Shown here piece after piece: positions 37,001 through 55,851 of a stretch of 64,000 bases of DNA (positions are counted from its first letter, which is position 1; the number at the start of each line of letters is the position of its first letter). The stretch is from an uncultured bacterium (GTDB taxonomy: Bacteria > Babelota > Babeliae > Babelales > Vermiphilaceae). The position numbers and the translations under genes are program-made. The stretch lies in NCBI GenBank assembly GCA_963719415.1, contig OY970383.1, forward strand, positions 748,100 through 812,099. Reading direction: 5' to 3'. The notes under the pieces were generated by a model. It saw nothing but the letters and a program-made list of their open reading frames with translations. It was not told where the DNA came from and did not search any database.

Positions 37001-37741
37001 TTATGCTAACTGCTTTATAGTTAACGTTGCTGCTACAGGATTTTTGTTAGGACCATTTCCACCTGCATAAGCAGTAATTTCTAAAGCTGGAGAATTAGCT
37101 AATGCCGGATTTCTGACACTTAAAACTGAATTATGAACAATAGTGGTAATAAAAAAAGTACCCACCAATTGAGAATTGCCGTTTTGTGATCCTACAACAG
37201 TGGGTGGAAGTTCAACAACTCCATGACCAGAATTCAACCCCAAGACTAATTGCCCGCCTACACCAACGTATACCTGAAAAGCAACCTCATAAGTGCCTAT
37301 ATTAGGCAAAATAAAAGTAGAATTAGAATCAACTACCCGAGTAATAGTGCCACTAGTTGGACCATCTTTAGGAAATTCAACAGCGTTTCCAGCACTAATA
37401 TCAGTAGCGTTATTGGGTGGCATGATAGCATAAAAACTAGCATAACTGATTATTCTACCATCTCCCCTATCTCCCTTATCTCCCTTAGGTCCAGGCAAAC
37501 CAACTATTTCATTTATTGGAACATAATTTACTCTTAATAGACCTTTAATATTCACACATCCATCAACAGTCAAATCTTTAGTTTTTAGTACCGCAAGCAA
37601 AGCCTTACCCGCTTTGATAGATCGAAAAACAGCTGATTTACCTTTTGATGAATTCGAATGCGATTGTTTTTTTTGGTCATTTCCATAAACTGGAGACAAA
37701 AACAATGAAACTGAAAGTACCAATATTGTTTTCTTTAACAT
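37001..37741 (-). CDS. secreted protein with a short collagen-like G-X-Y run and a beta-rich C-terminal domain (BclA/C1q-like, tentative)
   Basis: Signal MLKKTILVLSVSLFLSPVYG. GLPGPKGDKGDRGDG gives five G-X-Y triplets. The C-terminal ~150 aa resemble BclA-type C-terminal domains (TFILPNIGTYEVAFQV...LVLGLNSG...LSVRNP...ATLTIKQL). Confidence 0.45.
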   Translation of the reverse strand: MLKKTILVLSVSLFLSPVYGNDQKKQSHSNSSKGKSAVFRSIKAGKALLAVLKTKDLTVDGCVNIKGLLRVNYVPINEIVGLPGPKGDKGDRGDGRIISYASFYAIMPPNNATDISAGNAVEFPKDGPTSGTITRVVDSNSTFILPNIGTYEVAFQVYVGVGGQLVLGLNSGHGVVELPPTVVGSQNGNSQLVGTFFITTIVHNSVLSVRNPALANSPALEITAYAGGNGPNKNPVAATLTIKQLA

Positions 37742-39026: not shown

Positions 39027-39140
39027 ATAAAATTCCCAAAATTTGTTACTATAAACAGAACAAGTTAAATGAACACTAAAAAGTATATACTAATTTTTCA
39101 CGTATACTAATTTATTACGTACACCCATTTATTAAAATTT

Positions 39141-39250
39141 ATTGCTATTATATTGCTATTATATTGCTATTATATTGCTATTATATTGCTATTATATTGC
39201 TGTTGTATTGTTATTATATGGCTATTATATTGCTGTTGTGTTGTTATTAT
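39141..39250. repeat. tandem repeat, 10 x 11 bp (attgctattat; five perfect then five degenerate copies)
   Basis: Perfect units at 39141, 39152, 39163, 39174 and 39185. Variants follow: attgctgttgt, attgttattat, atggctattat, attgctgttgt, gttgttattat. Sits in the divergent dcd / secretin-operon intergenic region. Confidence 0.9.
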
Positions 39251-39409
39251 AAGATTGTTACAATAATATATAATATTCTTATTTAACTATACTTGTTATA
39301 ATAAAAAATAGTAAAACTAGAACAATAAACCTTCTACTTAATGAAAAATTTGATAAAAAATAGAAGATAACTATTGTTTGAAGAGCAAAATGCAAACAAA
39401 GGACTCCCG

Positions 39410-40564
39410 ATGAAACATCCTTTTTGGATTTTGAATAGCCTGTTATTTTTCCTTTTACTTTTTGTTATGGGATTTATATATATATTTAGATACCCCTTAC
39501 CAGAAAAAGAGACAATAGAATTAACTACTGTTGCTTTGCCTGCAACAAAAGAAAAACTGCACATCAATATCGCAAAAATTTACGAACACGATATCTTTGA
39601 TACATATAAGGAAGAAGTGCCGGTGGTTGAAGAAGAATCTCAATTAATTGAACCATTACCAGAGCCTCCTAAATCGATTCCTGTTTCTATTCCAGAACTA
39701 CCAGAGCCTCAGTTTTTAGACCAAATTAACATTACCCTTAAAGGTATTGTTGTTTTTAATACCGATAATAGTAAAAATCGCGCCATCATAGAAGATAACA
39801 AAACAAAAGAAGAAAATGTTTATAGCACTGGTGATTCTATTGAAGATGCGCGGCTCATTCGTATTTTCAGCAACAAAATAATTATTGTGCGAAGTAATGG
39901 ACAACAAGAAGTTCTCTATCTACGAGAAGAAGATGCAAAAAACGATCCGACGTATATAACTATTGATCAATGGGATGCTGCAATTAAAAAAATAACTGAT
40001 TCTGAATATACTATTGACGTAAAAGAGTTTATTAGTCGCATCAATAATCTTGGCCAGCTCGTTGATACCCTTGGATTAACTACTGCTTATGAAAGAGGAG
40101 TCAGTGTGGGATGCAAAATAGGCAAATTAGATGAAAAATCTGTTGGTCCGCAAATGGGTCTAAAATCGGGAGACATTATTCTTTCAATAAATAAGATTCC
40201 TGCCGATACAACCGAAAACAGACTTGCTATTTATCAACAGATTATGCTTCTTGGCAATAACAGTATTGTTGATGTTTCTATACGCAGAAATAACAACGAA
40301 CAAAAAATACATTATACTTTACAGATGGCAGATGATACCTTAAAAGAAAAAGAGACCGAAGCATCGCAAAATAAAGCAGAAAATAAAGCATCAGAAAACA
40401 AAGCTCCAGAAAGCAAAGAAAAATCAGAAAAAAATAGATTTTCTGATTTAAGAGCAAGATATTCATTTGCACCAACTATGAAAGAAATTCGGATGCGTGA
40501 AAAGCAGCAGATGCTAACCAAAGGAAAACGAAAAAATTCAGTATCAACGAATATTAATGAGTAA
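39410..40564 (+). CDS. GspC/PilP-like inner-membrane protein (TM + HR domain + PDZ)
   Basis: ATG 39410 after AAAGGA. TM FWILNSLLFFLLLFVMGFIYIF. HR-like ITLKGIVVFNTDNSKNRAIIEDNKTKEENVYSTGDSIEDARLIRIFSNKIIIVRSNGQQEVLYL. PDZ-like VGCKIGKLDEKSVGPQMGLKSGDIILSINKIPAD. K/E/N-rich tail. Confidence 0.65.
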   Translation: MKHPFWILNSLLFFLLLFVMGFIYIFRYPLPEKETIELTTVALPATKEKLHINIAKIYEHDIFDTYKEEVPVVEEESQLIEPLPEPPKSIPVSIPELPEPQFLDQINITLKGIVVFNTDNSKNRAIIEDNKTKEENVYSTGDSIEDARLIRIFSNKIIIVRSNGQQEVLYLREEDAKNDPTYITIDQWDAAIKKITDSEYTIDVKEFISRINNLGQLVDTLGLTTAYERGVSVGCKIGKLDEKSVGPQMGLKSGDIILSINKIPADTTENRLAIYQQIMLLGNNSIVDVSIRRNNNEQKIHYTLQMADDTLKEKETEASQNKAENKASENKAPESKEKSEKNRFSDLRARYSFAPTMKEIRMREKQQMLTKGKRKNSVSTNINE

Positions 40565-40569
40565 TTGTT

Positions 40570-43473
40570 ATGAATAAAAAAAACATACATCTTTTTTTTA
40601 ATATACTGTTTATTGCTATTCTTTTCTCTTCTACTAACTCTCTCTATGGAAGAAAAAGAAAAAAAAATCATAAGAGCCGCACTCTTTTAGTAGCTCAAGC
40701 TGCAACGCCAACTATAATTAATCCATACGACATGAGTGATCCATACGACAAAATAGAAAATAAAAATAAAATAGAAGAAAAAGAAGAGATAAGATTAGAT
40801 AGCCTACAAAGAGCACTTCCTCTTGAGCTGCTTCATAATACGCCAAAGCAACCAACAAATATCTCTTCCAAAGCTCCTATTTCTTCTGATTCTGCTCCTA
40901 CAACCATAGAAGAAACAGTAGAAAAAACAATGGTTGAAAAAGAGATCGAACAAGATCTTAAGTTAGAACCCGAACAAAAAGTTGATATTGCCGAAATTAA
41001 AGAAGATCTTAAAGTTAAAAATATAGAATTTAACTTCGAAAACTCTGACCTACTCAGTATAATTAAATTTATTGAAGATTTATTTGGAATAACATTTATA
41101 AGTGACAGCAGCATTCAGCCTCTTCCTAAAGGAGCATCGTCTCTTGCTGGCCATAAAGTAAAATTTAAAACCAATGTACCATTATCAAAAAAAGAAGCGT
41201 GGGATCTTTTTGTTACGTTTCTTAATATGGCTGGTTTTGCCATTACTCTTGATCCAAAACCAGATTGTTTTAGAATCAAATCCCTTGAAGATGCAAGAAA
41301 ATCGCCACTTCCTACTTTTATCGGCATAGATCCTGAGTTGCTACCACAAAATAATGAATTAATTCGTTATGTCTATTTTGTGGAAAATAGAAATGTTGAA
41401 GAACTAAAAGAAATTATCACTAAATTAAAAAGTAATAACGCCGATCTCATTCAGCTCACCAACCATAAAGCATTTATATTAACGGATAAAGCATATAATA
41501 TTAAAATGCTTATGCAGATAGTAAAAGAGCTTGATAAAGTAAGCATGCCCCAATCAATGTCTGTATTAAAACTACAAAGCCATGTAAGCGCCCAACAAGT
41601 AAAAGAATTGTATGATAGTCTTACCAAGACGGATACATCCCCTCAACAATTTTTTCAGGCTCGTAAACAACAAACAGCTCTTTTCTTTCCTGAAAATACT
41701 ACTATAATAGCCGAACCTCGAACCAACTCATTAATTTTACTCGGCACAAAAGATTCTATTGCCAAAATAGAACATTTCATAAAAAAACATATTGATAAAG
41801 ATCTTGATATACCGTATACCCCTTTCTATATATATCAACTCAAGTATGCGGAAGCCACGGCAATTGCTGAAATTATGAATAGCGTAACCGAGCTAGGAAA
41901 AGACGGAGGCGAAGGCAGAGATATCATCAGACATATGAAACCGATTTCGTTTATTGCTGAAGAAATAACCAATCGTCTTATTATTAAAGGCCATTATGAT
42001 GACTATATGATAGCAAAAGATATAATAGATAGGCTCGATTCTCCTCAAGCTCAAGTTGCTATAGAAATCTTAATCTTAAGCGTAAATATATCCGACGCGA
42101 AAAAATTAGGCGCACAAATTCGCAGCAAAGATCCAGGAGCTGATGGCTTTCTTGGAAAAAATGTTAAATTTCAGACATCTGGTCTTAATCAGAATAAAGG
42201 AATTGTTCCCAATACACAGCAAAGTAGTTTCGGTGTAACACGGCTTCTTGGTGACCTTGTTTCCTTGGCACAAGGAGCTATTTCAGGAAACACTGTGCTA
42301 ACGCTCGGGTCTGATTCATTTGGTATTTGGGGAATATTCCAAGCACTACAAACGATAACCAATACACAAATTGTTTCAAATCCCTTTATACTGGCTACCA
42401 ATAAAACACCTGCACAATTTTCGGTAGGGCAGACGCGCAGAGTACAAACGGGTACCATTTTCAGCGGCGGTAGCTCACCAATTGAAACTCTTGGTGACCT
42501 GAAGGCTAATTTAGACTTAAACGTTACTCCACAAATTAATTCAGATGGTATGATAGTCCTGAATTTATCGATAGATATTGTTGATTTTACCGATCCAAAT
42601 CCAGATAGTAAAAATGCAACAACAACAACACGTCACATCAAAACTCATGCTATTGTTGCCAATAATGAAGTACTTGCGCTTGGAGGCCTTATTAAAAATT
42701 CTATTGGAAGACAAGGACACCAAGTACCATTATTAGGAAAAATACCTATTATTGGTTGGTTGTTTAAAAATCAAGCTAAACAGCAAGAAAAAGATAGCCT
42801 GTTAATTCTTATATCTTCTACTATTATAGAAAAACATAAAACAAAAGACATTAATACCTTTAATCAAGAACGAATTAAAGACTATCAAGGTACGTTGGCC
42901 GCAATGCAACACCCCTCTGACTCAAAAGATCCAATAAACCGACTCTTTTTTGATAGCAATAAAAACGGTACTGAAAATTTAATTAATAATTTTATTTTCA
43001 CCAGAGCAAATATCAATATAGAAGACGACAATAACAGAAAAGCAAAAAAACCTAAAACACGCTTTCAAAAAAGAACGCATAAAAAGCAGGAAAAATTAAG
43101 AAAAAAACAGACAGAATCTAAGCCTGAACAAAACCCAACGGACTCTGTTGCGTCTACTAAGCCCCCTGACCAAAATAAACAGATAAATCAAACTACGGAT
43201 CAGGCTACATACCCCAAAGTTCAGGTCCCAACAAGTTCTGCTCGATCTATGACAACAGATTCGAAAACGACTTCTTCGGCGGCTGCGACTGTTTCGACAT
43301 CTGCGGCGCCCACAAAAACCGATTTTGTACAACCGGCTATTCCGTTTTCCTCTAAACCGAATCTGCAAAAACAACCGAATCCCAACAGAAATAGTGTTAT
43401 TTTAGCTCAAAGAAAAAAAAACAATCTCTCTGATTTTTTGCGTGAATCAAAAATAGATAGGACAAAAATATGA
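40570..43473 (+). CDS. secretin (GspD/PilQ family) A, with long low-complexity N- and C-terminal extensions
   Basis: N0-like NIEFNFENSDLLSIIKFIEDLFGITFI. N-domain repeats (YIYQLKYAEATAIAEIM). Secretin core PQAQVAIEILILSVNISDAKKLGAQI ... VLALGGLIKNSIGRQGHQVPLLGKIPIIGWLFKNQAKQQEKDSLLILISSTII. A ~190-aa K/T/Q/S-rich tail follows. Confidence 0.85.
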   Translation: MNKKNIHLFFNILFIAILFSSTNSLYGRKRKKNHKSRTLLVAQAATPTIINPYDMSDPYDKIENKNKIEEKEEIRLDSLQRALPLELLHNTPKQPTNISSKAPISSDSAPTTIEETVEKTMVEKEIEQDLKLEPEQKVDIAEIKEDLKVKNIEFNFENSDLLSIIKFIEDLFGITFISDSSIQPLPKGASSLAGHKVKFKTNVPLSKKEAWDLFVTFLNMAGFAITLDPKPDCFRIKSLEDARKSPLPTFIGIDPELLPQNNELIRYVYFVENRNVEELKEIITKLKSNNADLIQLTNHKAFILTDKAYNIKMLMQIVKELDKVSMPQSMSVLKLQSHVSAQQVKELYDSLTKTDTSPQQFFQARKQQTALFFPENTTIIAEPRTNSLILLGTKDSIAKIEHFIKKHIDKDLDIPYTPFYIYQLKYAEATAIAEIMNSVTELGKDGGEGRDIIRHMKPISFIAEEITNRLIIKGHYDDYMIAKDIIDRLDSPQAQVAIEILILSVNISDAKKLGAQIRSKDPGADGFLGKNVKFQTSGLNQNKGIVPNTQQSSFGVTRLLGDLVSLAQGAISGNTVLTLGSDSFGIWGIFQALQTITNTQIVSNPFILATNKTPAQFSVGQTRRVQTGTIFSGGSSPIETLGDLKANLDLNVTPQINSDGMIVLNLSIDIVDFTDPNPDSKNATTTTRHIKTHAIVANNEVLALGGLIKNSIGRQGHQVPLLGKIPIIGWLFKNQAKQQEKDSLLILISSTIIEKHKTKDINTFNQERIKDYQGTLAAMQHPSDSKDPINRLFFDSNKNGTENLINNFIFTRANINIEDDNNRKAKKPKTRFQKRTHKKQEKLRKKQTESKPEQNPTDSVASTKPPDQNKQINQTTDQATYPKVQVPTSSARSMTTDSKTTSSAAATVSTSAAPTKTDFVQPAIPFSSKPNLQKQPNPNRNSVILAQRKKNNLSDFLRESKIDRTKI

Positions 43474-45131
43474 TTAAAAATATTTTTTTACCTGAACAAA
43501 TTAATGGATATTTTTTATTTCCTAAGCGAGTTGTTAGTATATCTATTTTTCCTACTTTTATTAATGCAACGCAACTCTATATTAAGGGTAAGTCTTATAC
43601 GGTAGAAAAATGCCTACAAGAACAACTAGATCCAAATACGACACTTACCCTGCCTGAACGCACCATTAATGCTCTAAAAAAAATAAAAACTCAGCTAGGT
43701 GCATTTGATGAAGTACATTCGGTAGTATCAAGCAATAGTATTGTATTTAAAAAGCTTAAAGTACCTTTTGTAGATTATGAAAAAATTAAATTAATTATAC
43801 ATTTTGAAGCAGAACCACTCCTTCCTTTTCCCTTAAAAGATGCCATCATTGATTTTGTAATCATTCGACAAATACCAGAAGAGCAGAGTAGCGAAATTCT
43901 TGTTGTTGCAACACAAAAAAAGAACATAGCTGAACTTGTTGATATATTTAAACAAGCTGATATAAAACTAGATCTCGTAACCGTAGACATTGTATCACTC
44001 TACAATCTCTACCAACAAATACCAAGTTATAACCAACAAAAAGGTAATGTTGTTCTATTAGGCCTTGATATGCATGCCACGCATATTGGTCATATATATC
44101 ATAATCAGCTTCGCACCATTAGAACATTAAATAAAGGTCTATCCTTTATTATAAAAACAGTAAGCGATAAACTAAAATTACCCTATTTTAATGTTATGGA
44201 TCATTTTATACGCTTTGGCATCACTCATACCAATCAACCAGAAATAACTGATGCTCTCAAAAAAGCTACTGATGAGTTATTGCAAGAAATTCGCTTTACC
44301 CTTAGTTCTTTTACAACGCAAACAATAAAAAATGAATCAATTGATACCATCTTACTTTTTGGTGATGGTGCAGCCATCGCTCATTTTGCATCTTATATTA
44401 ATGCTAATCTAGGAATTTTGACGAGCGTTTTTACCATACAAGAACTAATAGATTCAAAAAAAATAATTATACCTTCCAGTCTTTTGCCTATAATAAACAC
44501 ACAAGTAATTAATATAAGCACCGTAATGCCTAATCAGTTTGCAACAACAGCATCACTTAATCTTTTGAAAGATGAATTTAGCCAATCTAGTTCTTATCTG
44601 CTTCTAAAGCAATTAGGGGCACTTGTTCTTATTGCAGCTGCATCGCTTGCTCTTTTGTTCACTTATTCAATGCTAGAAACTGAAAAAATAAAAACCGCTC
44701 TATTTAAGAACACCACGGAAGCAGTTGAGCTTCTAGAGCGTCATTTTCCCAATAAGATCGATATCGATCAAGAAGATAAAGAATCAGCAGGCACTGAATT
44801 AAGCGACGCGGTAGATGAGGCCGAAAAAGCATTAAAAAGTGAAGAGCTTACATGGATTGCTTTTTCTGGTCGATCAAGAATCTCCTTTTTGCACTATATT
44901 CTTGAGCTAACCAATTTAATAGATAAAAAAGATCTCGGCTTTGAAATAGAAGAACTCACTATTACTCATACAGACATGACTTTAAAAGCCAAAGTTACTG
45001 ACTATCCTGCTCTTAAAAAATTAGAAAACGAATTAAAACGTTCAAAATTATTTAACTATAAAGAACAACAAACAGAGCCAAATTTTACCATGAAAATACT
45101 GTTAGCCAAAAACGGTCAGGAACTATCATGA
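43470..45131 (+). CDS. PilM-PilN fusion (GspL-like topology)
   Basis: ATGA overlap with the preceding stop. PilM-like N-terminal half (LKVPFVDYEKIKLIIHFEAEPLLPFPLKDAIIDFVII...LVVATQKKNIAELVDIFKQADIKLDLVTVDIVSLYNLY...LGLDMHATHIG). One TM (LGALVLIAAASLALLFTYSML). Then a ~150-aa periplasmic part. Confidence 0.65.
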   Translation: MIKNIFLPEQINGYFLFPKRVVSISIFPTFINATQLYIKGKSYTVEKCLQEQLDPNTTLTLPERTINALKKIKTQLGAFDEVHSVVSSNSIVFKKLKVPFVDYEKIKLIIHFEAEPLLPFPLKDAIIDFVIIRQIPEEQSSEILVVATQKKNIAELVDIFKQADIKLDLVTVDIVSLYNLYQQIPSYNQQKGNVVLLGLDMHATHIGHIYHNQLRTIRTLNKGLSFIIKTVSDKLKLPYFNVMDHFIRFGITHTNQPEITDALKKATDELLQEIRFTLSSFTTQTIKNESIDTILLFGDGAAIAHFASYINANLGILTSVFTIQELIDSKKIIIPSSLLPIINTQVINISTVMPNQFATTASLNLLKDEFSQSSSYLLLKQLGALVLIAAASLALLFTYSMLETEKIKTALFKNTTEAVELLERHFPNKIDIDQEDKESAGTELSDAVDEAEKALKSEELTWIAFSGRSRISFLHYILELTNLIDKKDLGFEIEELTITHTDMTLKAKVTDYPALKKLENELKRSKLFNYKEQQTEPNFTMKILLAKNGQELS

Positions 45132-45688
45132 TGCTTCTTAAAAAATTAAATACCAGATTAGAATCATTAAGCGCTAAAACATTTTATATAATAAGTGGCG
45201 TCCTCGTATCAGCTACTATTGCTCTAGGTGGATTAATCATTTTTTGGCATTTTAATTCGATAAATCATTTTTATGAACAATTTGATGAGATAAATACGCT
45301 CCGTAAAGATCGCATTCAGCCTCTTTTAATTCGCGCAAAACAGGTAAGAAAAGAACATGAAAAAGTCGATGCTCTTCTGGCAGAAGACCCTAATTTCAAA
45401 ATTGGCGAAGTGATAAAAAACATATTAATAGAATTGCGCCTTACTGATAATTCAGTAATCCAAGGTTACACAACAACTGAACGAGAAGAAAAATATATAG
45501 AGACAGTATTGAGTATGCGTTTAGAAAATATTGATATGAAACAGCTTGCTCAGCTTCTTGAACAGATAGAAAATAATCAACGAATTACTATGAATACTAT
45601 TGAGATAGTAAGATCGAAAAAAAAACCTAACAAACTGGAAGTGTCTCTTACTATTGCAGAACTACAACCAAAAGAATTAGAAAAATAA
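45128..45688 (+). CDS. PilO/GspM-like bitopic membrane protein
   Basis: ATGA overlap with the preceding stop. A single N-terminal TM (FYIISGVLVSATIALGGLIIFW), then a ~140-aa soluble part. The call rests mainly on size, topology and position. Confidence 0.45.
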   Translation: MMLLKKLNTRLESLSAKTFYIISGVLVSATIALGGLIIFWHFNSINHFYEQFDEINTLRKDRIQPLLIRAKQVRKEHEKVDALLAEDPNFKIGEVIKNILIELRLTDNSVIQGYTTTEREEKYIETVLSMRLENIDMKQLAQLLEQIENNQRITMNTIEIVRSKKKPNKLEVSLTIAELQPKELEK

Positions 45689-48474
45689 TGAATATACATA
45701 CTCTATTTAAAAAAATTACTCTATTTCGTATTCTTAGTATATGTTTTATAACCTATTTTATAGTCTGTTCGGTGATCATGGCTGATAGTCAGATTCCTTC
45801 TGCACTCGATAACGATTCAGCTGAATTTTCTGCTATAGATAAAATAGATATTCAGAGCATAGAAGAAAAAACACGCGCAACAGAAATAAAATATCAGACT
45901 AATACTCAAGAAAAAAAAGATGAACTCATTTTATTTAAACCAAAAAATGAAAATAAGCTGGAAATTATTATAAATCGCCTTGCTGAGCTTTCCGGTAGAA
46001 ATATTATACTTCCCCAAGAAGCATCGTTTAAAGATATCACCGTAAACTTTGATTACCCTGAAAAAATAAGTATTGAAGATGCTTGGGAAAAATTTTTGCC
46101 AACCGTACTTGATATTGCCGGATATAGCATTTGTCCAAAAGGAGACTTATATGCGATTATCAAAAATGAAAAAGAGATAAGCAAAGAACCTATGCCTATC
46201 TATATTAATACTACTAATTCAGATAAAAATATACCCGACACAGATCAAAGAATTCGTTACCTTCACTATTTTACCAATATAAAGATTCTTACTATTAAGG
46301 ATGTTTTACAAGGTCTTGTAGCTGGATTATTCCCTTCTGACACTATTTTTGAAATGGATCCTTCCACCAACTCATTTATTCTCTGCGCCAAAGCAAACAA
46401 TATAAAAGCATTCCTAAAAATTATTGAACCGCTGGATATTCCGGGTTTTCAAGAAGAATATGATATTATAGAACTCAAATATGCTGATGCAAAAACCGTC
46501 GCTGCTATTTTTAATGATCAGATTTTAAAATCAGAACAAGATCGTAATCGCTACCGACTCGATGCAAAAAAAGAATCAAAAGAGACCTATTTTTCAAGCA
46601 CGGTAAAAATAATTCCAGCAGAAAGACTACGTTCTCTTATTTTATTAGGAAAACCTCAAGCGATTCAAAGAATCAAAGATGTTATTAAAAAATATATTGA
46701 TGTTCCTGTTGATAAAGCCGAATCTATTATTCATACCTATCAGCTACAATATCTTGATGCATATGATTTAAAACCAATACTTGAACAAGTAATACAATCA
46801 AAAAGAGGAGGTGGCACCGGTCAATCTCAAGGTCAAAATAGCGAAATGGGGCCAGAGCGTTGGTTCCAGGACGTAATCATCTATGCTGATAGTGTAAAAG
46901 AAAAGGACCACTCCCTTAAATATCCAGGAACCAATACATTGATTGTGGCTGCGCAAGCTGATGATTGGAAGCAGATCAAAGAATTAATCAAAAAATTAGA
47001 TTCTCCTCAGCCACAGGTATTAATAGAAATCCTTATCGCCGATTTAACGTTAAATGATGCTCGTAACTTAGGTGCTATTACCCGTAATCCAGACAATTTC
47101 TCTTTACCTGGCTCTATTAATTTTCAATCCGCTCACTTTAATGGCATTATAACCGATAGCCCTGTTTCTACCGGTGGTACGCCAACTACCATAAAAGCTG
47201 ATCTTCTTGGTGATACAGCAGTAGGCAGCAAACCAGGACAAACATTGGTTTCTCTCAATGATAGCAATGGTGCAACATGGAGTTTGCTACAAATAATAAA
47301 TAGTTTTACCGATTCAAAAGTACTTTCTCATCCGCATATTATTACCACCAATAATCAGTCAGCATTAGTATCCTCAGGGGAAAATCGATTACTTCCTGAC
47401 GAAGCTAGTGGAGCAACGGGGGGTACTGCAACTCAAGTATTTAGAACGGTCAAAGCAGATTTGGAGATAAATATTAAGCCTCGTATAAGCTCTGACAACC
47501 TTATCAATCTGCAAATTGACATTAATGTTGATCATTTTGCTATAGACAATCCCGTAAGCGGCACAAAAATTACCCGCAAGCTGGTAACTAATGCTAATGT
47601 ACCCAACAAAACAATCTTGCCTCTTGGTGGTATTATTCAAAAGGGTAATAGAGTTTCTCAAAATGAAACTCCCCTATTAGCTCGCATCCCTCTTATTGGA
47701 TGGTTATTCAAAAATAGAAGCGGTGATGTTGCTGAAAGTCATGTCACCATATTTATTTTACCAACAATCATACAGCCTCGCCTCCGTCCAGGAATTAGTA
47801 AATATACCAGCGATTATATTCATCTATCACAACAATATGCTGATGAAGGAAATTTATTTGATAGACTCAAAGAACCGATAACTCACCTGTTTTTTAAAAC
47901 CGATCATGATATAGAACAGGAAATTAATACTTTTCTATCAAAAGATGAATTTAAAACAGACTTCTATTCTCATCATAACGGCCCAGATGATAATCCAGAA
48001 CAAAGCTTTACCGAAATAGATAAAGAAAAAAAACAAACAAAATTAGAAAAAAAACGTAAAAAAACTAATAAAAACAAAAAAATTCGAATACGAACAACGG
48101 GTACTGATGATACAGATAGCGAGCACACGAATAACACAGAACAGGATTCTTCTGAGACAGATTCTGAAGCTGGTGTAAATGCTGCTACGACTGATACAGA
48201 CACCCATACAAAACATATAAAACAAGCAAAAAAATCTCCAACACAAATACGAACCAGAAAACGAAAAATTAATACGAGCGATAACCCAGAAGAGAATTCT
48301 ACCGATCCCTTTATAGATACAGAACAGATGAACCCAGAAGAATCTCAAAGACGAACCCAAGAAATTAATACTGCACGAGAAATTAATACTGAAGGTCCAT
48401 CGCTCAAAGAGATATTAAAAGACTCAGAAAATCCTTTTACCCGCAATAAACAACAACAAACTTTAAAAACTTAA
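45688..48474 (+). CDS. secretin (GspD/PilQ family) B, with a long low-complexity C-terminal extension
   Basis: TAATG overlap with the preceding stop. N0-like LEIIINRLAELSGRNIILPQEASFKDITVNFDY. N domains (YDIIELKYADAKTVAAIF; HTYQLQYLDAYDLKPILEQV). Core PQPQVLIEILIADLTLNDARNLGA ... ILPLGGIIQKGNRVSQNETPLLARIPLIGWLFKNRSGDVAESHVTIFILPTII. A ~200-aa K/T/E/D-rich tail follows. Confidence 0.85.
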   Translation: MNIHTLFKKITLFRILSICFITYFIVCSVIMADSQIPSALDNDSAEFSAIDKIDIQSIEEKTRATEIKYQTNTQEKKDELILFKPKNENKLEIIINRLAELSGRNIILPQEASFKDITVNFDYPEKISIEDAWEKFLPTVLDIAGYSICPKGDLYAIIKNEKEISKEPMPIYINTTNSDKNIPDTDQRIRYLHYFTNIKILTIKDVLQGLVAGLFPSDTIFEMDPSTNSFILCAKANNIKAFLKIIEPLDIPGFQEEYDIIELKYADAKTVAAIFNDQILKSEQDRNRYRLDAKKESKETYFSSTVKIIPAERLRSLILLGKPQAIQRIKDVIKKYIDVPVDKAESIIHTYQLQYLDAYDLKPILEQVIQSKRGGGTGQSQGQNSEMGPERWFQDVIIYADSVKEKDHSLKYPGTNTLIVAAQADDWKQIKELIKKLDSPQPQVLIEILIADLTLNDARNLGAITRNPDNFSLPGSINFQSAHFNGIITDSPVSTGGTPTTIKADLLGDTAVGSKPGQTLVSLNDSNGATWSLLQIINSFTDSKVLSHPHIITTNNQSALVSSGENRLLPDEASGATGGTATQVFRTVKADLEINIKPRISSDNLINLQIDINVDHFAIDNPVSGTKITRKLVTNANVPNKTILPLGGIIQKGNRVSQNETPLLARIPLIGWLFKNRSGDVAESHVTIFILPTIIQPRLRPGISKYTSDYIHLSQQYADEGNLFDRLKEPITHLFFKTDHDIEQEINTFLSKDEFKTDFYSHHNGPDDNPEQSFTEIDKEKKQTKLEKKRKKTNKNKKIRIRTTGTDDTDSEHTNNTEQDSSETDSEAGVNAATTDTDTHTKHIKQAKKSPTQIRTRKRKINTSDNPEENSTDPFIDTEQMNPEESQRRTQEINTAREINTEGPSLKEILKDSENPFTRNKQQQTLKT

Positions 48475-49707: not shown

Positions 49708-49840
49708 ATTTCTCCTTTTTTTTAAACATTTAGCAAATTAGCATAACAAAAAAATATATCTCAAAGCCATAGGCTAAAAATAGCTGCTAAATGGGTGAGC
49801 GAAAAAATTAAATTTACCTTTTCTTAACCCTGACAAAATC

Positions 49841-49871
49841 TTGACAATGTGGGAGCCCTTAGTAGTATATT
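49841..49871 (+). promoter_or_regulatory. candidate sigma70-type promoter
   Basis: Perfect TTGACA at 49841-49846. Either TAGTAT at 49863-49868 (16-nt spacer) or TATATT at 49866-49871. About 95 bp upstream of ATG 49963. Low specificity in AT-rich DNA. Confidence 0.3.
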
Positions 49872-49962
49872 CCTGTCATAAAAAAGAAACCATTATAGCT
49901 ATACCCATAATAAATTTTTTATAATAAAGGTTTATTATAAAAAAACATAGGAGATCGTAGCA

Positions 49963-50606
49963 TGAAACAAGTTCTCATTAAAAATAAATTAATAATAGTT
50001 ACTTTAGCTTTATTTTCGATAATTAATCTCTTTACCATAACTAGTTTATTTGCTGCGCAAGAAGGTAAAAAACCAGAAAAACCAGAAAAAAAAACAAAGA
50101 ACTAATTGAGCTATACCAACAATACCTTGACCACAAACAGACTGTTTATAAAATCAAAATTTGATGCCAACTCTCGTGAAATAGCACGACTACTTTTAGA
50201 TGCTCATGCTGATATTAATGCTAAACAAATTACTGGCACAAATGCTGAATTCCACAACACCATAGGATCAAGTGCATTGCATCATGCGTCGGCATCGGAT
50301 AGATGTCCTCTAGAAGTAATAGAAATATTGTCTGAAAACATGGATGCTATGCATATTCCAGTAGACGATAATGGCGATACTCCTTTTGACTACTTATGCA
50401 AAACAATAGAAAATGATACGCAACAATTTTTTTTCCCAAAAGCAGCGACACTGCTGTGGTGGTCACATGCTTACCAATTTGCAAAAGCTCGTAATTACCT
50501 TCCAGAACCAGAAACAGCACCTCTTTTAACTGATGGCTTCAATGCTATTGTTTATGATGCACAATGCGCTCGCAAAGACTTCCCTCTTGTCCTGCCTACA
50601 ACATAA
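49963..50606 (+). pseudogene. ankyrin-repeat protein interrupted by an in-frame TAA
   Basis: ATG 49963 opens MKQVLIKNKLIIVTLALFSIINLFTITSLFAAQEGKKPEKPEKKTKN, then TAA at 50103-50105. The same frame continues into ORF 50106..50606, which has only a TTG start and carries ANK-like LLLDAHADINAK...GSSALHHASAS. Confidence 0.45.
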
Positions 50607-50812
50607 AAGCATTTAATAAATTGATGCATGAATCAGCCAAAAAATCAACTCCAATTACTTATAAATGAAACCCTATCCGTTAATACAGATATTTCCCATA
50701 TTATAATAAATTATGCATGCAAATATACACCGTTTCCTATATATAGCAAAGCGTTGATAAATAACCCCAAAAGAATATACTAATTTCTAAACAAAAATTT
50801 AGGAGTTATAGT

Positions 50813-51684
50813 ATGTATAGCGTAGACATAAGAAAAAAAGCTCTCGATTTATTAATCGAGAAGAAAATGAAAAAAACAGAAGTAGCATTGTTGCTTGATA
50901 TAGACAGAAAAACATTATATACATGGAATAAAATATTCAAAAAAGAAGGCCGCATTGCACCATTATCAGATCGAACAAAATCTGGAAAAAGCAGAAGAAA
51001 ATTAGATTTAGTTAAATTTAAACTTTTTTTGGACGAACATCAAGATTGGACCATTAAAGCAATGACTGAAGCGTTGAAAGTTGGTAAAACAGCAGTAGGA
51101 ACAGCTATAAAGGCTCTTGGTTACACTCGAAAAAAAAACAATATTTATTCAAAGAAAGAATAGAGAAAGCACGAATAGAGTTTGCAGAGAAAGTAAAAAA
51201 AATAAAAAAATCAGAATTGGTATATTTTGACGAATCTGGAATTGACAATAACGAACGATATGCATATGGATGGGGATTGCGTGGCAAGCGCGTTTTTGCT
51301 GAAAAACCCGGGAATTCTACGCAAAGAACAAGTATTTGCGCAGGTCTTTTTGAAAATAAACTTTGTGCGCCTTTAATATTCGATGGTTATTGCAATAAAG
51401 AAATTATTAAATGTTATTTTGAGGCTGTTTTGCTGCCACATATAGGCACTGGAAAGACTATTGTTTTAGATAACGCATCGTTTCACAAATGGATCGAAAT
51501 CTCTGATATTGTAAATAAAGCTGGTTGTTCTTTGCTTTTTTTACCTGCTTATTCTCCAGACTTAAACCCAATAGAACATCATTGGGCTTACCTAAAAAAT
51601 AATATTAGGCGTGAGCTTGAATTTGTTGAAAATGATATTTGGAAAGCGACTTGTAATGCATTTGAGAAAATGGGGAATTCTTAG
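50813..51684 (+). CDS. IS630-family transposase, orfA/orfB joined by a -1 frameshift
   Basis: orfA has an HTH (KKTEVALLLDIDRKTLYTWNK). orfB has a DDE triad: VYFDESGID, IVLDNASFHK, DLNPIEHHW. The -1 frame is open from the A8 run (51131-51138) into orfB, giving ...GYTRKKKQYLFKERIEKARIEFAEKVKKIKKSELVYFDESG. Confidence 0.8.
51131..51138 (+). promoter_or_regulatory. A8 slippery run, candidate programmed -1 ribosomal frameshift site
   Basis: In frame 0 it reads cga aaa aaa aac. Slipping back one nucleotide on A AAA AAA enters the orfB frame, with no stop before the DDE domain. Confidence 0.5.
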
Positions 51685-51932
51685 TGCGCTATGCTATATC
51701 AAGCGCTGGCTTATCGAGAAGGTGATAATGAATTATACATACCCAACACACGTCATATTAAAGAACCCAAAAAAAAATTGCATTATATCATAACAAAATA
51801 TATAGACTGCAAATATTTATGGTATAAAAAAATATTGGTATAATATTCGCCATTTTTTTTTGTTTATATATAATATCTCTATGTGTAACATCTATGCTTA
51901 ACATTAATTTTCTTTACTCAAGGGCCGCTTTC

Positions 51933-52208
51933 ATGAAATTACATATAGCCATATTATTCAGCGCTTGCTGTATCGCCAACAGCCTGTATCCTGCTGAAAA
52001 AAAATCGAATCGCGCTACTCGTGCTGAACTTGCTCGCACTGCTAGAAATCATGCCGCCGCTGCCCAACAACTACTTGCTGGCGATCCTAATGCTGCTCTT
52101 ACTATAAGCTTAAAAAATTTGGTAGAACATCTTTATACAAGGCCAGAGCCAAGAGTTGCAAGACCATCATTTAGCAACCGATATGAACCTAGTAGTTTAA
52201 ATAAATAG
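51933..52208 (+). CDS. hypothetical small secreted protein
   Basis: The internal Met gives signal MKLHIAILFSACCIANSLYPA. Ala/Arg-rich mature part. Locally GC-richer codons than neighbouring genes. Confidence 0.4.
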   Translation: MKLHIAILFSACCIANSLYPAEKKSNRATRAELARTARNHAAAAQQLLAGDPNAALTISLKNLVEHLYTRPEPRVARPSFSNRYEPSSLNK

Positions 52209-52260
52209 ATACTAAAAAAACTAGCTCTTAAAAAGCAAAACTGTTTTCATAAAAATAGTA

Positions 52261-53319
52261 TTATGCAAACAGTTTTGCGGTGTTTGGATATTCTCGCTTT
52301 GCGTCTTGGGTTTGCATAACATATCGCAATGAAAGATATGGTTCTCCTACAAAAGAACAGACCAATTTTGTAACACCACTAACCGGTAAAAGTTTTTTAA
52401 CTATACCTTTCATCTTTTTATTTCCTTCATGCCGCCATTGAGGTAAAAGATCTATTTCTCCTACAAAAGAACAGATCAAATCAGCAACATTACCGACAGG
52501 TATAAATTTTTGGATTTTATTTTTCATATTTTTATTTTGCTTATTTCTCCATTGAGGTGATACTTCATGAATCTTTTTCATTTCTTTGTTAATGGTACAA
52601 AACAAAGGAAGATGGTCCGGATTCTCTTGTGCAAGATAATAATGTGGTAATTGTCTCTTATCATTTAAAAGACAATCCTGATATGGCAACCACCATAACA
52701 ATAATGCCATTTTTTCTCCAAAATCAGTAGCATCTTTGCTCATTAAACATAGATTATGTAAGGGGGTATCTGTATGTTCTTTATATACAGGCATAATACA
52801 ACGCGAGAGAAATTCTATTACCTTTGTAGAGCGATTACGCGTTACCGCTTTATGTAGTGCTGTAACTCCCGGCATACATTGATAATTAAAATTAGCACCA
52901 AGCTCCGAAAAAATGCCTAATGTTTTCTCTGCCTTTGCAAAATATACAGGTGTTTCTCCGTATACGTCAAGAAATTCTAAAGAAGCACCATACATTACGC
53001 AAGCTCTAATAAGATCATTATCATTCAATAAGCAGGCATGCTTTAATAAAAAGGCTGACCCATATCCATTTATATTTGGATTAGCGCCTTGACGAATCAA
53101 ATCTATCATTTTCCTACTATTTTCAAACCAGGTAATCTTGCAGGCAATTTGACTAGATATTCTGAAAAGCTTTTTTAATTTTTGCGTGAGTAATTCGTTA
53201 TAAACTATTTGTTTGGGCCCATTGCTTTTTAAGCATAATTGCTGTTGAGATTCAGATGCCCAAAATAGTATATACGATGTAAATAAAAAAATTATTGCTA
53301 AAGTAAGTCTGTTTTTCAT
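52261..53319 (-). CDS. ankyrin-repeat protein with a duplicated C-terminal ~33-aa module
   Basis: ANK-like repeats (LIRQGANPNINGYGSAFLLKHACLLNDNDLIRACVMYGASLEF; GVTALHKAV). C-terminal repeats QWRNKQNKNMKNKIQKFIPVGNVADLICSFVGE / QWRHEGNKKMKGIVKKLLPVSGVTKLVCSFVGE. Hydrophobic N-terminus. Confidence 0.75.
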   Translation of the reverse strand: MKNRLTLAIIFLFTSYILFWASESQQQLCLKSNGPKQIVYNELLTQKLKKLFRISSQIACKITWFENSRKMIDLIRQGANPNINGYGSAFLLKHACLLNDNDLIRACVMYGASLEFLDVYGETPVYFAKAEKTLGIFSELGANFNYQCMPGVTALHKAVTRNRSTKVIEFLSRCIMPVYKEHTDTPLHNLCLMSKDATDFGEKMALLLWWLPYQDCLLNDKRQLPHYYLAQENPDHLPLFCTINKEMKKIHEVSPQWRNKQNKNMKNKIQKFIPVGNVADLICSFVGEIDLLPQWRHEGNKKMKGIVKKLLPVSGVTKLVCSFVGEPYLSLRYVMQTQDAKREYPNTAKLFA

Positions 53320-53335
53320 AATTTTTATCTGTTAA

Positions 53336-55093: not shown

Positions 55094-55100
55094 AATTCTC

Positions 55101-55787
55101 CTAAATAAAATTATTTTTTTTAAAATCTTTAATAACGTCTTCAATCGCACCATTAATATGGTAAATCATAAGAGCTTGAGCCTTTTTTTTATCTCGCGCA
55201 AGGACGGCTCGAGCTATTTGCTGATGCTCATGATTATTAATGGATAATGCATGCTTGCTGATTTGATATGCCATACGACAATAACGATCAAACTTCATAT
55301 ATAGATTACGACGAATATCAAGAAGTGTTGGCGAATTACATCCCGAAATCAGAGCAACATGAAAGTTATAATTACATTCAGCCCATTGAGCATAAGAATC
55401 AAATTCTTTTTTATTTTCTAATAATGAGAGCTTATGAAGCTCTGCAACTATCAAAGCTTCCCAACCTGCGTCTCCATGTTCAATGGCGAGCGCCAGCGCC
55501 ATATTTTCGATCAAAGTAAAAGTGGCATAAATATCTCGTATATTAGACTCGGATATGGTCGAAACCCGAAATCCTTTGTTATCTTCAACGTCTACCAAGC
55601 CAGAAGAAACCAGGCGAGATAACGCTTCTCTTACGGGACTTTGTCCAATATTAAAACGTTCTTTAATAGGCGCAACTTTAAGTTTTTGGCCTGGCTTGAG
55701 AATTCCTTGAATAATCTCACTTTGCAATTGCTCATAACATTGCTGAGCTAATGTGCTTTCACAAGAGAATATTATCTTTTTTCCCAT
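55101..55787 (-). CDS. GntR-family (FadR/FCD-type) transcriptional regulator
   Basis: Winged HTH LKPGQKLKVAPIKERFNIGQSPVREALSRLVSSGLVDVEDNKGFRV plus a helical C-terminal domain. ATG 55787 preferred over TTG 55799. Confidence 0.85.
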   Translation of the reverse strand: MGKKIIFSCESTLAQQCYEQLQSEIIQGILKPGQKLKVAPIKERFNIGQSPVREALSRLVSSGLVDVEDNKGFRVSTISESNIRDIYATFTLIENMALALAIEHGDAGWEALIVAELHKLSLLENKKEFDSYAQWAECNYNFHVALISGCNSPTLLDIRRNLYMKFDRYCRMAYQISKHALSINNHEHQQIARAVLARDKKKAQALMIYHINGAIEDVIKDFKKNNFI

Positions 55788-55851
55788 AAAACACCCCAAA
55801 AAAAATTAATATTACATTCTTCTATCTTTTTACTTTAGCGACAATTTTTTA

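What the first reader, a model, noticed from the sequence alone, without database searches (positions are those of the whole stretch)
39410..48474. Translationally coupled five-gene envelope operon with two secretins around a PilM-PilN fusion
Seen in sequence: the gene order is [TM + HR + PDZ, GspC/PilP-like] - [secretin A, 967 aa] - [PilM-like domain + TM + periplasmic part, 553 aa] - [bitopic PilO/GspM-like, 186 aa] - [secretin B, 928 aa]. All five are on one strand. Junctions are a 5-bp gap (40565-40569), ATGA overlaps at 43470-43473 and 45128-45131, and a TAATG overlap at 45686-45690. Both large ORFs have N0-like starts, repeated N domains and the secretin core ending in LLG/LLA-[KR]IP[IL]IGWLFKN. 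Both replace the usual short C-terminal S-domain with ~190-200 aa of low-complexity sequence containing strongly basic patches (RKAKKPKTRFQKRTHKKQEKLRKKQ; KKRKKTNKNKKIRIRT). Secretin A also has a ~130-aa low-complexity N-terminal extension. No GspE/PilB-type ATPase, GspF/PilC platform, (pseudo)pilin or prepilin peptidase gene lies in this window. Established knowledge: T2SS uses one GspD with GspC/L/M, and T4P uses pilMNOPQ with one PilQ. Inference: this is a hybrid outer-membrane/alignment module. Either two secretins share one PilMN/PilO-type subcomplex (as alternative conduits or a mixed channel), or a gspCD pair has fused with a pilMNO-Q block that lost pilP. The HR domain is PilP-homologous and could serve both.
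Basis: partly seen in the sequence, partly recalled or inferred. Interest (0 to 1): 0.75.

Follow-up and report, generated by a model that had tools for sequence, protein, structure and literature searches.

The report
Two-secretin secretion scaffold operon of Dependentiae
This is a real five-gene operon encoding the envelope scaffold of a type II secretion / type IV pilus-like machine with two paralogous outer-membrane channels; every sampled genome of the parasitic phylum Dependentiae keeps it, the doubled secretin was already noted in 2016, and nobody yet knows why two channels are needed.

Summary
Five co-oriented, overlapping or near-abutting genes encode GspC (HR+PDZ), a GspD-type secretin (A), a PilM-fold/TM/periplasmic fusion (GspL-equivalent), a GspM/PilO-fold bitopic protein, and a second GspD-type secretin (B).

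The window comes from an unnamed Candidatus Dependentiae (TM6) genome. The same order, flanked by dcd and enolase, occurs in essentially all ~85 related loci examined, down to 26% identity.

The two secretins are ancient paralogues of each other, not a GspD plus a PilQ. Both keep an S-domain-like segment. Each then adds a fast-evolving disordered tail that ends in a paralogue-specific short motif.

No ATPase, platform or pilin gene lies in the window or within 9 kb of the operon in any relative. Published COG tables for Babela and TM6SC1 list two PulE, two PulF, one PilM and no PilT.

My best reading is one shared C/L/M alignment complex serving two distinct homo-oligomeric secretin channels. 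A mixed channel is not excluded.

Yeoh et al. (2016) already reported two gspD copies in all TM6 genomes. What is added here is the operon architecture, the paralogy and the tail motifs. Interest is moderate.

The parts
39410..40564 (+). gspC-like gene (384 aa from the ATG; an alternative TTG start lies at 39374). It has a TM helix at residues 5-26 (39422-39487), an HR/T2SSC domain at residues 46-171 (39545-39922), a PDZ domain at about residues 221-304 (40070-40321), and a low-complexity Lys/Glu-rich tail at residues 305-384.
   Evidence: Pfam T2SSC 6e-8 (33 bits, above the 27-bit cut-off), PDZ_6 6e-4. NCBIfam GspC_delta 4e-22 over model positions 45-310 of 311 (79 bits, below the 150-bit cut-off). 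An AAGGA sits 7 nt before the ATG. An orthologue is present upstream of secretin A in all related loci.
40570..43473 (+). Secretin A (967 aa, GspD-type). Layout: signal peptide at about residues 1-27; variable low-complexity N-extension 28-150; N0-N3 151-~510; secretin core 592-754; conserved S-domain-like segment 755-810 (KDPINRLFF at 42925-42951); variable tail 811-967 with a basic patch (43036-43110); C-terminal motif NLSDFL (43423-43440).
   Evidence: Pfam Secretin 4.9e-35, Secretin_N x3, N0 2.3e-6. TIGR02517 GspD 6e-82 (276 bits, cut-off 351), against PilQ at 138 bits. Best PDB match is GspD 5zdh, 158 bits. Collinear with E. coli GspD residues 25-624. Conservation map; tails.
43470..45131 (+). 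GspL-equivalent PilM-PilN-type fusion (553 aa). Layout: conserved N-terminal MIKNIFLPE (43470-43496); full PilM-fold actin-like domain, residues 1-~352; FNLL-type motif SLNLLKDEF just before the membrane (44553-44579); TM helix running into a long helix, 375-425 (44592-44744); periplasmic alpha/beta domain 486-545 (44925-45104).
   Evidence: Pfam PilM_2 9.6e-20; TIGR01175 pilM 1.9e-25; weak GspL C-terminal part 0.009. Homologues carry precomputed T2SSL+PilM_2. AF2 pLDDT 82.9. Foldseek: PilM 5eou 2.9e-21 and 2ych TMt 0.81; GspL cytoplasmic domain 1yf5 2e-9, TMt 0.67. The N-terminal motif is present in 79 of 82 orthologues. N364 and L365 are nearly invariant.
45128..45688 (+). GspM/PilO-like bitopic protein (186 aa). 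Layout: TM helix at residues 19-42 (45182-45253), a long helix to residue 86, and a ferredoxin-like periplasmic domain at 92-181 (45401-45670).
   Evidence: The window protein has no family hit. Of 47 orthologues, 14 hit Pfam T2SSM, best 5e-6, and the L088 orthologue has T2SSM (weak). AF2 pLDDT 85.4. Foldseek: PilO 2rjz 1.2e-4; EpsM 1uv7 TMt 0.60-0.64; PulM 8a9x TMt 0.65. An equivalent 180-200-aa bitopic ORF sits at this position in all 73 loci examined.
45688..48474 (+). Secretin B (928 aa, GspD-type paralogue of A). Layout: signal peptide at about residues 1-32; variable 33-85; N0-N3 86-~470; secretin core 540-696; conserved S-domain-like segment 697-750 (KEPITHLFF at 47869-47895); variable tail 751-928 with a basic patch (48049-48096); C-terminal motif LKEILKDSENPF (48403-48438).
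   Evidence: Pfam Secretin 4.1e-30, Secretin_N x3. TIGR02517 GspD 4.4e-81 (273 bits), against PilQ at 133 bits. Best PDB match is GspD 5wq8, 101 bits. 29% identity over 657 aa to secretin A. Collinear with E. coli GspD. The C-terminal NP[FL] motif occurs in 49 of 69 B orthologues and 2 of 76 A orthologues.

Best explanation
The operon encodes the envelope-spanning scaffold of the type IV-filament machinery (T2SS / T4P-like) of a Dependentiae bacterium. This is the only dedicated secretion apparatus reported for the phylum.

Proposed roles of the five products:
- GspC is anchored in the inner membrane. Its HR domain docks onto a secretin N0 ring.
- The PilM-PilN-type fusion does the job of GspL. 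Its cytoplasmic actin-like domain holds the hexameric GspE/PilB ATPase. Its periplasmic domain pairs with the GspM/PilO-like protein.
- Two GspD-type secretins form gated channels in the outer membrane.

Overlapping stop and start codons couple the translation of the five products. The motor, the platform, the (pseudo)pilins and the prepilin peptidase are encoded elsewhere in the genome.

The two secretins arose by an old duplication inside this lineage and have been kept, in fixed positions, throughout the phylum. I infer that they form two separate homo-oligomeric channels that both dock on the single GspC/L/M scaffold. That would give two machine variants, matching the two PulE and two PulF genes reported in Babela and TM6SC1. 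One variant would export Sec-delivered folded effectors. The other would serve a pilus-like or stage-specific function.

Each paralogue carries its own disordered C-terminal tail with its own terminal motif. I propose these tails keep targeting and assembly of the two secretins apart.

Shown: gene content, folds, paralogy, conservation, tail motifs. Inferred: the docking partners, separate rather than mixed rings, and the division of labour.
For: Conservation. Order and strand are conserved in all ~85 loci where the contig allows. The upstream secretin always scores higher to window A and the downstream one to window B; in L005, for example, the scores are 653/231 against 253/542. Neither secretin is missing in any locus. 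The only split copies are in three frameshift-ridden assemblies, L023, L041 and L085, which argues against simple redundancy.

Paralogy. A and B share 249 bits, more than either shares with any solved secretin. The split {E. coli GspD, HofQ} | {all A and B} has 97/100 bootstrap support.

One scaffold, two motors. There is one GspC, one GspL-like and one GspM-like gene per locus. In the published COG table Babela and TM6SC1 each have PilM 1, PulE 2, PulF 2 and PilT 0, with PulD 3 and 2 respectively (PMC4378268 Additional file 11).

Tails. Every orthologue of both secretins has at least 111 aa after the core motif. The terminal motifs are paralogue-specific: the B motif occurs in 45/69 B against 0/76 A, and the A motif in 21/76 A against 0/69 B. 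Tails evolve by indels while folded parts stay 80-96% identical.

Literature. Diverse targeting routes of related secretins are thought to prevent non-functional mixed multimers (PMC3230066). The P. aeruginosa Xcp system can work with an alternative GspC/GspD pair, XphA/XqhA (PMC6567927).
Against: Nothing here shows physical interaction, stoichiometry or channel composition.

The persistence of both secretins in one translationally coupled operon across a whole phylum would also be expected for an obligate mixed complex.

The count of two ATPases and two platforms rests on a COG table for two genomes. I could not inspect those genes or this genome outside the window.

There is only one GspC. 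In the known XphA/XqhA case each secretin brings its own GspC.

Bootstrap support for monophyly of A (53) and of B (58) is modest. In a deep clade of 15 loci A and B are as close to each other as to their positional orthologues.

No pili were seen on Babela (PMC4776705).
Confidence: 0.5

Rival explanations
1. Obligate mixed machine. Secretins A and B co-assemble into one outer-membrane complex on one GspC/L/M scaffold. This could be a hetero-oligomeric ring, or two coaxial or stacked rings such as channel plus cap or collar.
For: Both genes sit in one translationally coupled operon. The order is fixed in ~85 loci over very large divergence, and neither copy is ever lost. Conserved gene order at that depth usually marks physically interacting products (established knowledge). 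Both proteins keep full N0-N3, core and S-like segments. A single GspC is present.
Against: No natural hetero-oligomeric secretin is known to me (from memory). Mixed multimers of related secretins are regarded as non-functional, and cells are thought to avoid them (PMC3230066). A and B are only 29% identical. They carry different C-terminal motifs, which suggests different partners. Two PulE and two PulF are reported in Babela and TM6SC1, which suggests two machines.
Confidence: 0.2
2. Redundant or condition-specific alternative conduits for one and the same T2SS. This would resemble XcpQ and XqhA in Pseudomonas aeruginosa, with no second machine.
For: There is precedent for an alternative GspC/GspD pair that works with the Xcp machinery (PMC6567927). 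There is one scaffold for two secretins. Dependentiae alternate between an extracellular and an intracellular stage (PMC6561590).
Against: Redundant copies are expected to be lost in reduced genomes of 1.1-1.7 Mb, yet both are retained in every locus. The genes overlap, so they cannot easily be regulated apart. No promoter-like or terminator-like signal exceeds the shuffled background inside the operon.
Confidence: 0.15
3. Chimeric origin. A gspC-gspD pair was joined to a type IV pilus pilM-N-O-(P)-Q block that lost pilP, so secretin B is a remodelled PilQ.
For: The order fusion(PilM+PilN)-PilO-like-secretin mimics pilMNOPQ, while gspC-gspD mimics T2SS operons. The cytoplasmic domain is closer in fold to PilM than to GspL. 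The best fold matches of the 186-aa protein are PilO. Yeoh et al. suggested that one gspD may stand in for pilQ.
Against: B scores as GspD at 273 bits against PilQ at 133. It has three Secretin_N domains plus an N0-equivalent region and no AMIN domain. B is nearer to A than to any PilQ. 'B+HofQ' is recovered in 1 of 100 bootstraps. Orthologues of the 186-aa protein hit T2SSM, not PilO, in Pfam.
Confidence: 0.1

Closest known systems
Canonical type II secretion system outer-membrane and assembly-platform components GspC-GspD-GspL-GspM (e.g. E. coli K-12 gspC-O, Klebsiella Pul, Vibrio Eps)
   Same: GspC has a TM helix, an HR domain and a PDZ domain. The secretins are GspD-type with N0-N3, core and S-like segment, collinear with E. 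coli GspD. A bitopic protein with a cytoplasmic actin-like domain (GspL role) is paired with a bitopic GspM-fold protein. gspC lies directly before gspD, and the L-like gene directly before the M-like gene.
   Different: There are two secretins instead of one. The E, F, G-K and O genes are not in the cluster, nor within 9 kb in any relative. The cytoplasmic domain is a full PilM fold rather than the shortened GspL domain. Both secretins carry long disordered C-terminal tails. All NCBIfam equivalog scores fall below the curated cut-offs.
Type IVa pilus alignment subcomplex PilM-PilN-PilO-PilP-PilQ (P. aeruginosa, M. xanthus, T. thermophilus; E. coli hofMNOPQ)
   Same: A PilM fold is present. 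An INLLP-like motif (FNLLK) lies just before the TM helix, where the PilN N-terminus would be. The partner has a PilO-like fold. The HR domain of GspC is homologous to PilP (established knowledge). A secretin gene follows the PilO-like gene.
   Different: PilM and PilN are one polypeptide. PilP is replaced by a PDZ-bearing GspC placed upstream. Neither secretin is PilQ-type: there is no AMIN domain, and GspD scores exceed PilQ scores. PilT is absent from Babela and TM6SC1. No pili have been seen on Babela.
Pseudomonas aeruginosa XphA/XqhA, an alternative GspC/GspD pair that functions with the Xcp T2SS (Michel, Durand and Filloux 2007, cited in PMC6567927)
   Same: More than one secretin can serve a single inner-membrane T2SS platform.
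   Different: In Pseudomonas the second secretin comes with its own GspC. It lies outside the xcp locus, is separately regulated and is dispensable. In Dependentiae there is one GspC, both secretins are in one coupled operon, and both are universally retained.
Akkermansia muciniphila Amuc_1098-Amuc_1101 pilus-like cluster (NCBIfam Amuc_1098_fam secretin, Amuc_1101_fam PilM-like; Amuc_1100 structures)
   Same: The 553-aa protein hits Amuc_1101_fam (9.1e-20). Both secretins weakly hit Amuc_1098_fam. The 186-aa model matches Amuc_1100 structures (6kny, 6lad). Long PilM-like fusion proteins therefore exist in other host-associated lineages.
   Different: The scores are far below the family cut-offs. 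As far as I know that cluster has one secretin (from memory).
Chlamydial T2SS (classed as 'generic' and chimeric by Denise et al. 2019, PMC6668835)
   Same: It is a divergent T2SS-like system of an obligate intracellular bacterium. Standard models fail to class it.
   Different: The chlamydial system reportedly lacks GspL and GspM. Dependentiae keep both, and have two secretins.

Membership tests
Type II secretion system (T2SS) | GspD-type secretin with N0-N1-N2-N3, secretin core and S-domain | tested here: met
   Both large ORFs have Pfam Secretin plus three Secretin_N domains. Both are collinear with E. coli GspD residues 25-624. TIGR02517 gives E-values of 6e-82 and 4.4e-81. Their scores (276 and 273 bits) are below the equivalog cut-off of 351.
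Type II secretion system (T2SS) | GspC with a TM helix and an HR domain (plus PDZ or coiled coil) | tested here: met
   Pfam T2SSC scores 33.1 bits, above the 27-bit cut-off. GspC_delta gives 4e-22 across the whole model. PDZ hits are weak.
Type II secretion system (T2SS) | GspL (cytoplasmic actin-like domain + TM + periplasmic domain) and GspM | tested here: met
   The topology and folds are present. T2SSM is hit in 14 of 47 orthologues, and T2SSL in homologues. The cytoplasmic domain is PilM-type rather than GspL-type.
Type II secretion system (T2SS) | GspE ATPase, GspF platform, GspG-K pseudopilins and GspO peptidase | not testable with these tools
   These are absent from the window and from the +/-9 kb flanks of 84 related loci. 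The rest of this genome cannot be read. Published tables list PulE 2, PulF 2, PulG 3 and PulO 1 in Babela.
Type II secretion system (T2SS) | A single secretin per machine | tested here: not met
   Two secretin genes lie in the operon in all relatives.
Type II secretion system (T2SS) | Secretion of folded periplasmic proteins | not testable with these tools
   This needs experiment. The literature only predicts it (PMC4378268).
Type IVa pilus machine (T4aP) | PilQ-type secretin (AMIN domains, N0, N3, core) | tested here: not met
   No AMIN hit at E<=0.1. TIGR02515 PilQ scores 138 and 133 bits, against GspD at 276 and 273. PDB PilQ matches are weaker than GspD matches.
Type IVa pilus machine (T4aP) | PilM actin-like protein that binds the PilN N-terminus; separate PilN, PilO and PilP | tested here: inconclusive
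   The PilM fold is present (TMt 0.78-0.81) and so is a PilO-like fold. However, PilM and PilN are fused, and PilP is replaced by GspC. An INLLP-like motif is present, but its docking was not examined.
Type IVa pilus machine (T4aP) | Retraction ATPase PilT and surface pili | not testable with these tools
   The published COG table gives PilT 0 in Babela and TM6SC1. No pili were seen on Babela.

The most novel reading that the evidence does not exclude
Dependentiae build an obligate two-secretin machine. Either it is a mixed or stacked outer-membrane complex of two paralogous GspD proteins, or it is a single GspC/L/M alignment complex that switches between two dedicated ports and two motors. 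The paralogue-specific C-terminal motifs (A: ...LS[LV][ST]DFL; B: LKxLLxxxxNP[FL]) at the ends of disordered tails would then act as sorting or docking signals. Either form would be an architecture not described for any T2SS or T4P.
Probability: 0.3. Interest if true: 0.75.

Novelty: new variant of a known kind. Interest (0 to 1): 0.5.

Why it matters
Dependentiae are widespread obligate parasites of protists. They have very small genomes, and a large share of their proteins carry signal peptides. This apparatus is the only dedicated secretion system reported for them, so it is probably the route by which effectors such as the many ankyrin proteins reach the host.

A reduced genome that keeps two secretins next to a single alignment complex, across the whole phylum, implies that the second channel does something essential.

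For the T2SS/T4P field it offers a natural case to study three things: how one GspC/L/M scaffold recognises two secretins, how related secretins avoid or exploit mixing, and what long disordered secretin tails with terminal motifs do.

Yeoh et al. left open in 2016 whether one gspD substitutes for pilQ. That question becomes more specific: both copies are GspD-type paralogues embedded in one operon.

Tried and rejected
1. Direct family assignment of the 186-aa protein failed. It has no Pfam or NCBIfam hit, and a 47-sequence profile found nothing in PDB sequences. Scanning the orthologues individually and fold comparison resolved it.

2. The first homologue search for the 186-aa protein found only 3 proteins. 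An alignment-based search was needed.

3. I could not locate the ATPase, platform and pilin genes of this genome. The 1.416-Mb contig could not be read (one search returned only an 11.6-kb Logan contig). I relied on published COG tables instead.

4. McLean 2013 is not held. The supplements of Yeoh 2016 and Deeg 2019 are not held or have no hits.

5. Promoter and terminator scans inside the operon were not above the shuffled background. They say nothing either way about internal promoters.

6. I rejected lipoprotein-type (pilotin-independent) targeting of the secretins. Lipobox-like motifs occur in only 7/76 and 3/69 orthologues.

7. I checked whether the genome is the Noda2021 isolate. It is not: that genome is 1,222,284 bp at 38.3% GC, against a 1,415,691-bp contig at about 34% GC here.

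8. The NJ tree has only two outgroups, both from E. coli. No ML program was available. It argues against a GspD+PilQ origin but does not date the duplication.

9. The SecB NPF-like motif resembles eukaryotic EH-domain ligands. I did not pursue this, because secretin C-termini are expected to be periplasmic.

Full report
**Observation**

The five ORFs exist at the stated coordinates on the + strand. Their junctions are as described: a 5-bp gap, two ATGA overlaps and one TAATG overlap.

Profile searches identify four of the five products:
- ORF1 is GspC-like: Pfam T2SSC above its cut-off, NCBIfam GspC_delta 4e-22 over the full model, and weak PDZ hits.
- ORF2 and ORF5 are secretins: Pfam Secretin 5e-35 and 4e-30, with three Secretin_N stretches each.
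- ORF3 is PilM-like: PilM_2 1e-19.

ORF4 (186 aa) has no hit of its own. Of 47 orthologues, 14 hit Pfam T2SSM (best 5e-6), and T2SSM is the only family hit by more than four of them. An AF2 model (pLDDT 85.4) shows a TM helix, a long helix and a ferredoxin-like domain. Its best PDB matches are PilO, EpsM and PulM.

The AF2 model of ORF3 (pLDDT 82.9) has three parts. The first is a complete PilM-type actin-like domain: Foldseek gives 5eou 2.9e-21 and 2ych TMt 0.81, FtsA ranks next, and the GspL cytoplasmic domain 1yf5 gives 2e-9 with TMt 0.67. The second is a TM helix that continues as a long helix. The third is a C-terminal alpha/beta domain. This is GspL topology built from a PilM-type module.

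Two short motifs in ORF3 are conserved. One is the N-terminal MIKNIFLPE, present in 79 of 82 orthologues. The other is an FNLL-type motif just before the membrane (N364 and L365 nearly invariant), where the INLLP motif of PilN would sit. The PilN comparison is from memory.

**Source organism and conservation**

The GspL-like protein has an exact match on a 1,415,691-bp contig. Its relatives are annotated Candidatus Dependentiae. At 50% clustering the family has 782 representatives with E<=1e-30, and all of the best 150 are about 500-570 aa long.

A scan of one genome per GTDB species returned 80 loci. Those whose titles name a lineage are labelled Dependentiae, Babeliales or TM6, apart from 20 labelled 'uncultured Pseudomonadota' that carry the same locus; the rest are unclassified. 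Further contigs came from metagenomes.

In every locus where the contig is long enough the order is GspC, secretin, GspL-like, GspM-like, secretin, all on one strand. dcd usually lies divergently upstream, enolase convergently downstream, and mlaEF often further upstream. A 180-200-aa bitopic ORF sits between the GspL-like gene and the second secretin in all 73 loci examined, including those too divergent for phmmer. The arrangement holds down to 26% identity of the GspL-like protein.

**The two secretins**

Both are GspD-type:
- TIGR02517 gives 276 and 273 bits, against PilQ at 138 and 133.
- The best solved relatives are GspD proteins.
- Both are collinear with E. coli GspD residues 25-624.
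- Neither has an AMIN domain.

The two share 29% identity over 657 aa (249 bits). That is more than either shares with any solved secretin (158 and 101 bits).

In an NJ tree of 147 sequences and 655 columns, the split {E. coli GspD, HofQ} | {all A and B} has 97/100 support. 'A+GspD' and 'B+HofQ' each appear in 1/100. Across loci, the upstream copy always scores higher to window A and the downstream copy to window B.

Monophyly of A (53) and of B (58) is only moderately supported. In a deep clade of 15 loci the two copies are as close to each other (p=0.65) as to their positional orthologues (0.67 and 0.70). The duplication is therefore old and lineage-specific. Its exact timing relative to the deepest split is unresolved.

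**Tails**

A conserved segment of about 55 aa follows the core in both proteins and aligns with the S-domain region of E. coli GspD. In A it is residues 755-810 and contains KDPINRLFF. In B it is residues 697-750 and contains KEPITHLFF.

After this segment come variable, low-complexity tails:
- Every orthologue of both paralogues has at least 111 aa after the core motif, with a median of about 165.
- Basic patches are common but not constant. The maximum K+R count in a 25-aa window has a median of 9 in A and 7 in B. The window's value of 14 in each is at the high end.
- Against an 85%-identical relative, folded parts are 80-96% identical. The tails are 35-60% identical with many indels.

Near the C-terminus each paralogue has its own short conserved motif:
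- A: ...KKRxxLS[LV][ST]DFL. The strict form occurs in 21/76 A and 0/69 B.
- B: LKxLLxxxxNP[FL]. It occurs in 45/69 B and 0/76 A. NP[FL] alone occurs in 49/69 B against 2/76 A.

Paralogue-specific terminal motifs at the ends of disordered tails suggest different binding partners.

**Missing parts**

phmmer with E. coli K-12 GspE, F, G-K, L, M and O and HofM-P (loci L086 and L087) finds nothing in the window or in any of 84 related loci at E<=1e-3. The motor and the filament genes are therefore consistently unlinked from this operon.

The published COG table for Babela massiliensis and TM6SC1 lists the following (PMC4378268 Additional files):

| COG family | Babela | TM6SC1 |
|---|---|---|
| PulD | 3 | 2 |
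| PulE/PilB | 2 | 2 |
| PulF | 2 | 2 |
| PulG | 3 | 0 |
| PilV | 2 | 0 |
| PilE | 1 | 1 |
| PulO | 1 | 1 |
| PilM | 1 | 1 |
| PilT | 0 | 0 |

The Babela genes that could be located in the table are scattered over the genome.

**Mechanism**

The operon supplies a single GspC/GspL/GspM alignment complex and two outer-membrane channels.

I favour two separate homo-oligomeric channels sharing the scaffold (confidence 0.5), for these reasons:
- There are two ATPase/platform pairs but only one PilM-type protein in the published tables.
- Neither secretin is ever lost in these reduced genomes.
- The two secretins carry different terminal motifs.
- Cells are thought to avoid mixed secretin multimers (PMC3230066).

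An obligate mixed or stacked complex fits the tight, universal operon linkage equally well and remains possible (0.2). Purely redundant alternative conduits, as with XcpQ and XqhA in Pseudomonas (PMC6567927), are less likely given universal retention (0.15). A chimeric gspCD + pilMNOQ origin is not supported by the secretin comparisons (0.1).

**Comparison with the literature**

- Yeoh et al. 2016 wrote that pilQ is absent in TM6, that two gspD copies are present in all genomes, and that one might substitute for pilQ. They called this an open question (PMC4776705).
- Pagnier et al. 2015 called the T2SS the only secretion system of Babela.
- Deeg et al. 2019 suggested that pili might use 'a derived pulD channel'.
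- No paper found describes the operon order, the paralogy, the PilM-type GspL or the tails.
- Denise et al. 2019 do not mention Dependentiae.

The finding is therefore a variant of a known kind of system. It is partly anticipated in the literature and has not been studied experimentally.

**An additional point bearing on the operon**

In 70 of 72 related loci a moxR-type AAA+ gene lies directly upstream of gspC on the same strand. It is absent from the whole window and from the 85%-identical relative. In this genome the dcd-gspC spacer instead carries 17-bp and 11-bp tandem repeats.

Noticed in passing
window 39027-39409 (dcd-gspC spacer); related loci e.g. L002 5128-6120, L005 5018-6004, L006 4079-5131: A moxR-type AAA+ ATPase gene (Pfam bpMoxR/AAA_3) lies directly upstream of gspC, on the same strand and less than 400 bp away, in 70 of 72 related Dependentiae loci. 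It is missing from this whole 64-kb window and from the 85%-identical relative L090. The conserved unit in the phylum may therefore be six genes. The role of the ATPase is unknown; a part in secretin or scaffold assembly is one possibility.
   Followed up: partly
window 39086-39132 and 39140-39251: Two tandem-repeat arrays lie in the promoter region of the operon: a 17-bp unit x2.8 and an 11-bp unit TATTGCTATTA x10.2. They occupy the place where relatives carry moxR.
   Followed up: no
window 28723-31443 and 31801-34527 (+): Two tandem paralogous proteins of about 907 aa. Each has an N-terminal polytopic membrane part, a partial sigma-54-interaction (AAA+) domain (Pfam 1e-9, C-terminal half of the model only) and an HTH-like C-terminus. 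They lie about 5 kb upstream of the operon.
   Followed up: partly
window 37001-37741 (-): A secreted protein with a short collagen-like Gly-X-Y run (GLPGPKGDKGDRGDG) and a BclA_C/C1q-like head (Pfam 3.3e-5, below the cut-off).
   Followed up: partly
window 14942-18099 (-) and 56532-58452 (+): Two arrays of tandem paralogous signal-peptide proteins: five of 165-200 aa and two of 310/317 aa. The two scanned (14942-15496 and 56532-57464) have no Pfam family; the others were not scanned. They are candidate lineage-specific secreted proteins, and so possible substrates of the machine.
   Followed up: no
window 49708-59994: About 10 kb lies between enolase and aspS. It holds ankyrin-repeat genes (50106-50606, 52261-53319), what looks by eye like an IS630/Tc1-like transposase split over two ORFs (50813-51684; not scanned), and what look by eye like an ABC exporter and a GntR regulator (neither scanned). 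In the close relative L090 enolase and aspS are only about 1.8 kb apart, so this looks like an insertion.
   Followed up: partly
window 48463-48474: The stop codon of secretin B overlaps the 3' end of the convergent enolase gene by 12 bp. No terminator-like hairpin was found there.
   Followed up: partly
window 4741-6597 (+): A secreted 618-aa protein made of three Cache-type domains (sCache_2 3.8e-32) with no attached signalling output domain.
   Followed up: no
related loci L065-L082 (deep Dependentiae clade): In this clade the two secretins are as similar to each other as to their positional orthologues, and the SecB NP[FL] motif is missing. Possible causes are gene conversion, an independent duplication, or saturation.
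   Followed up: partly
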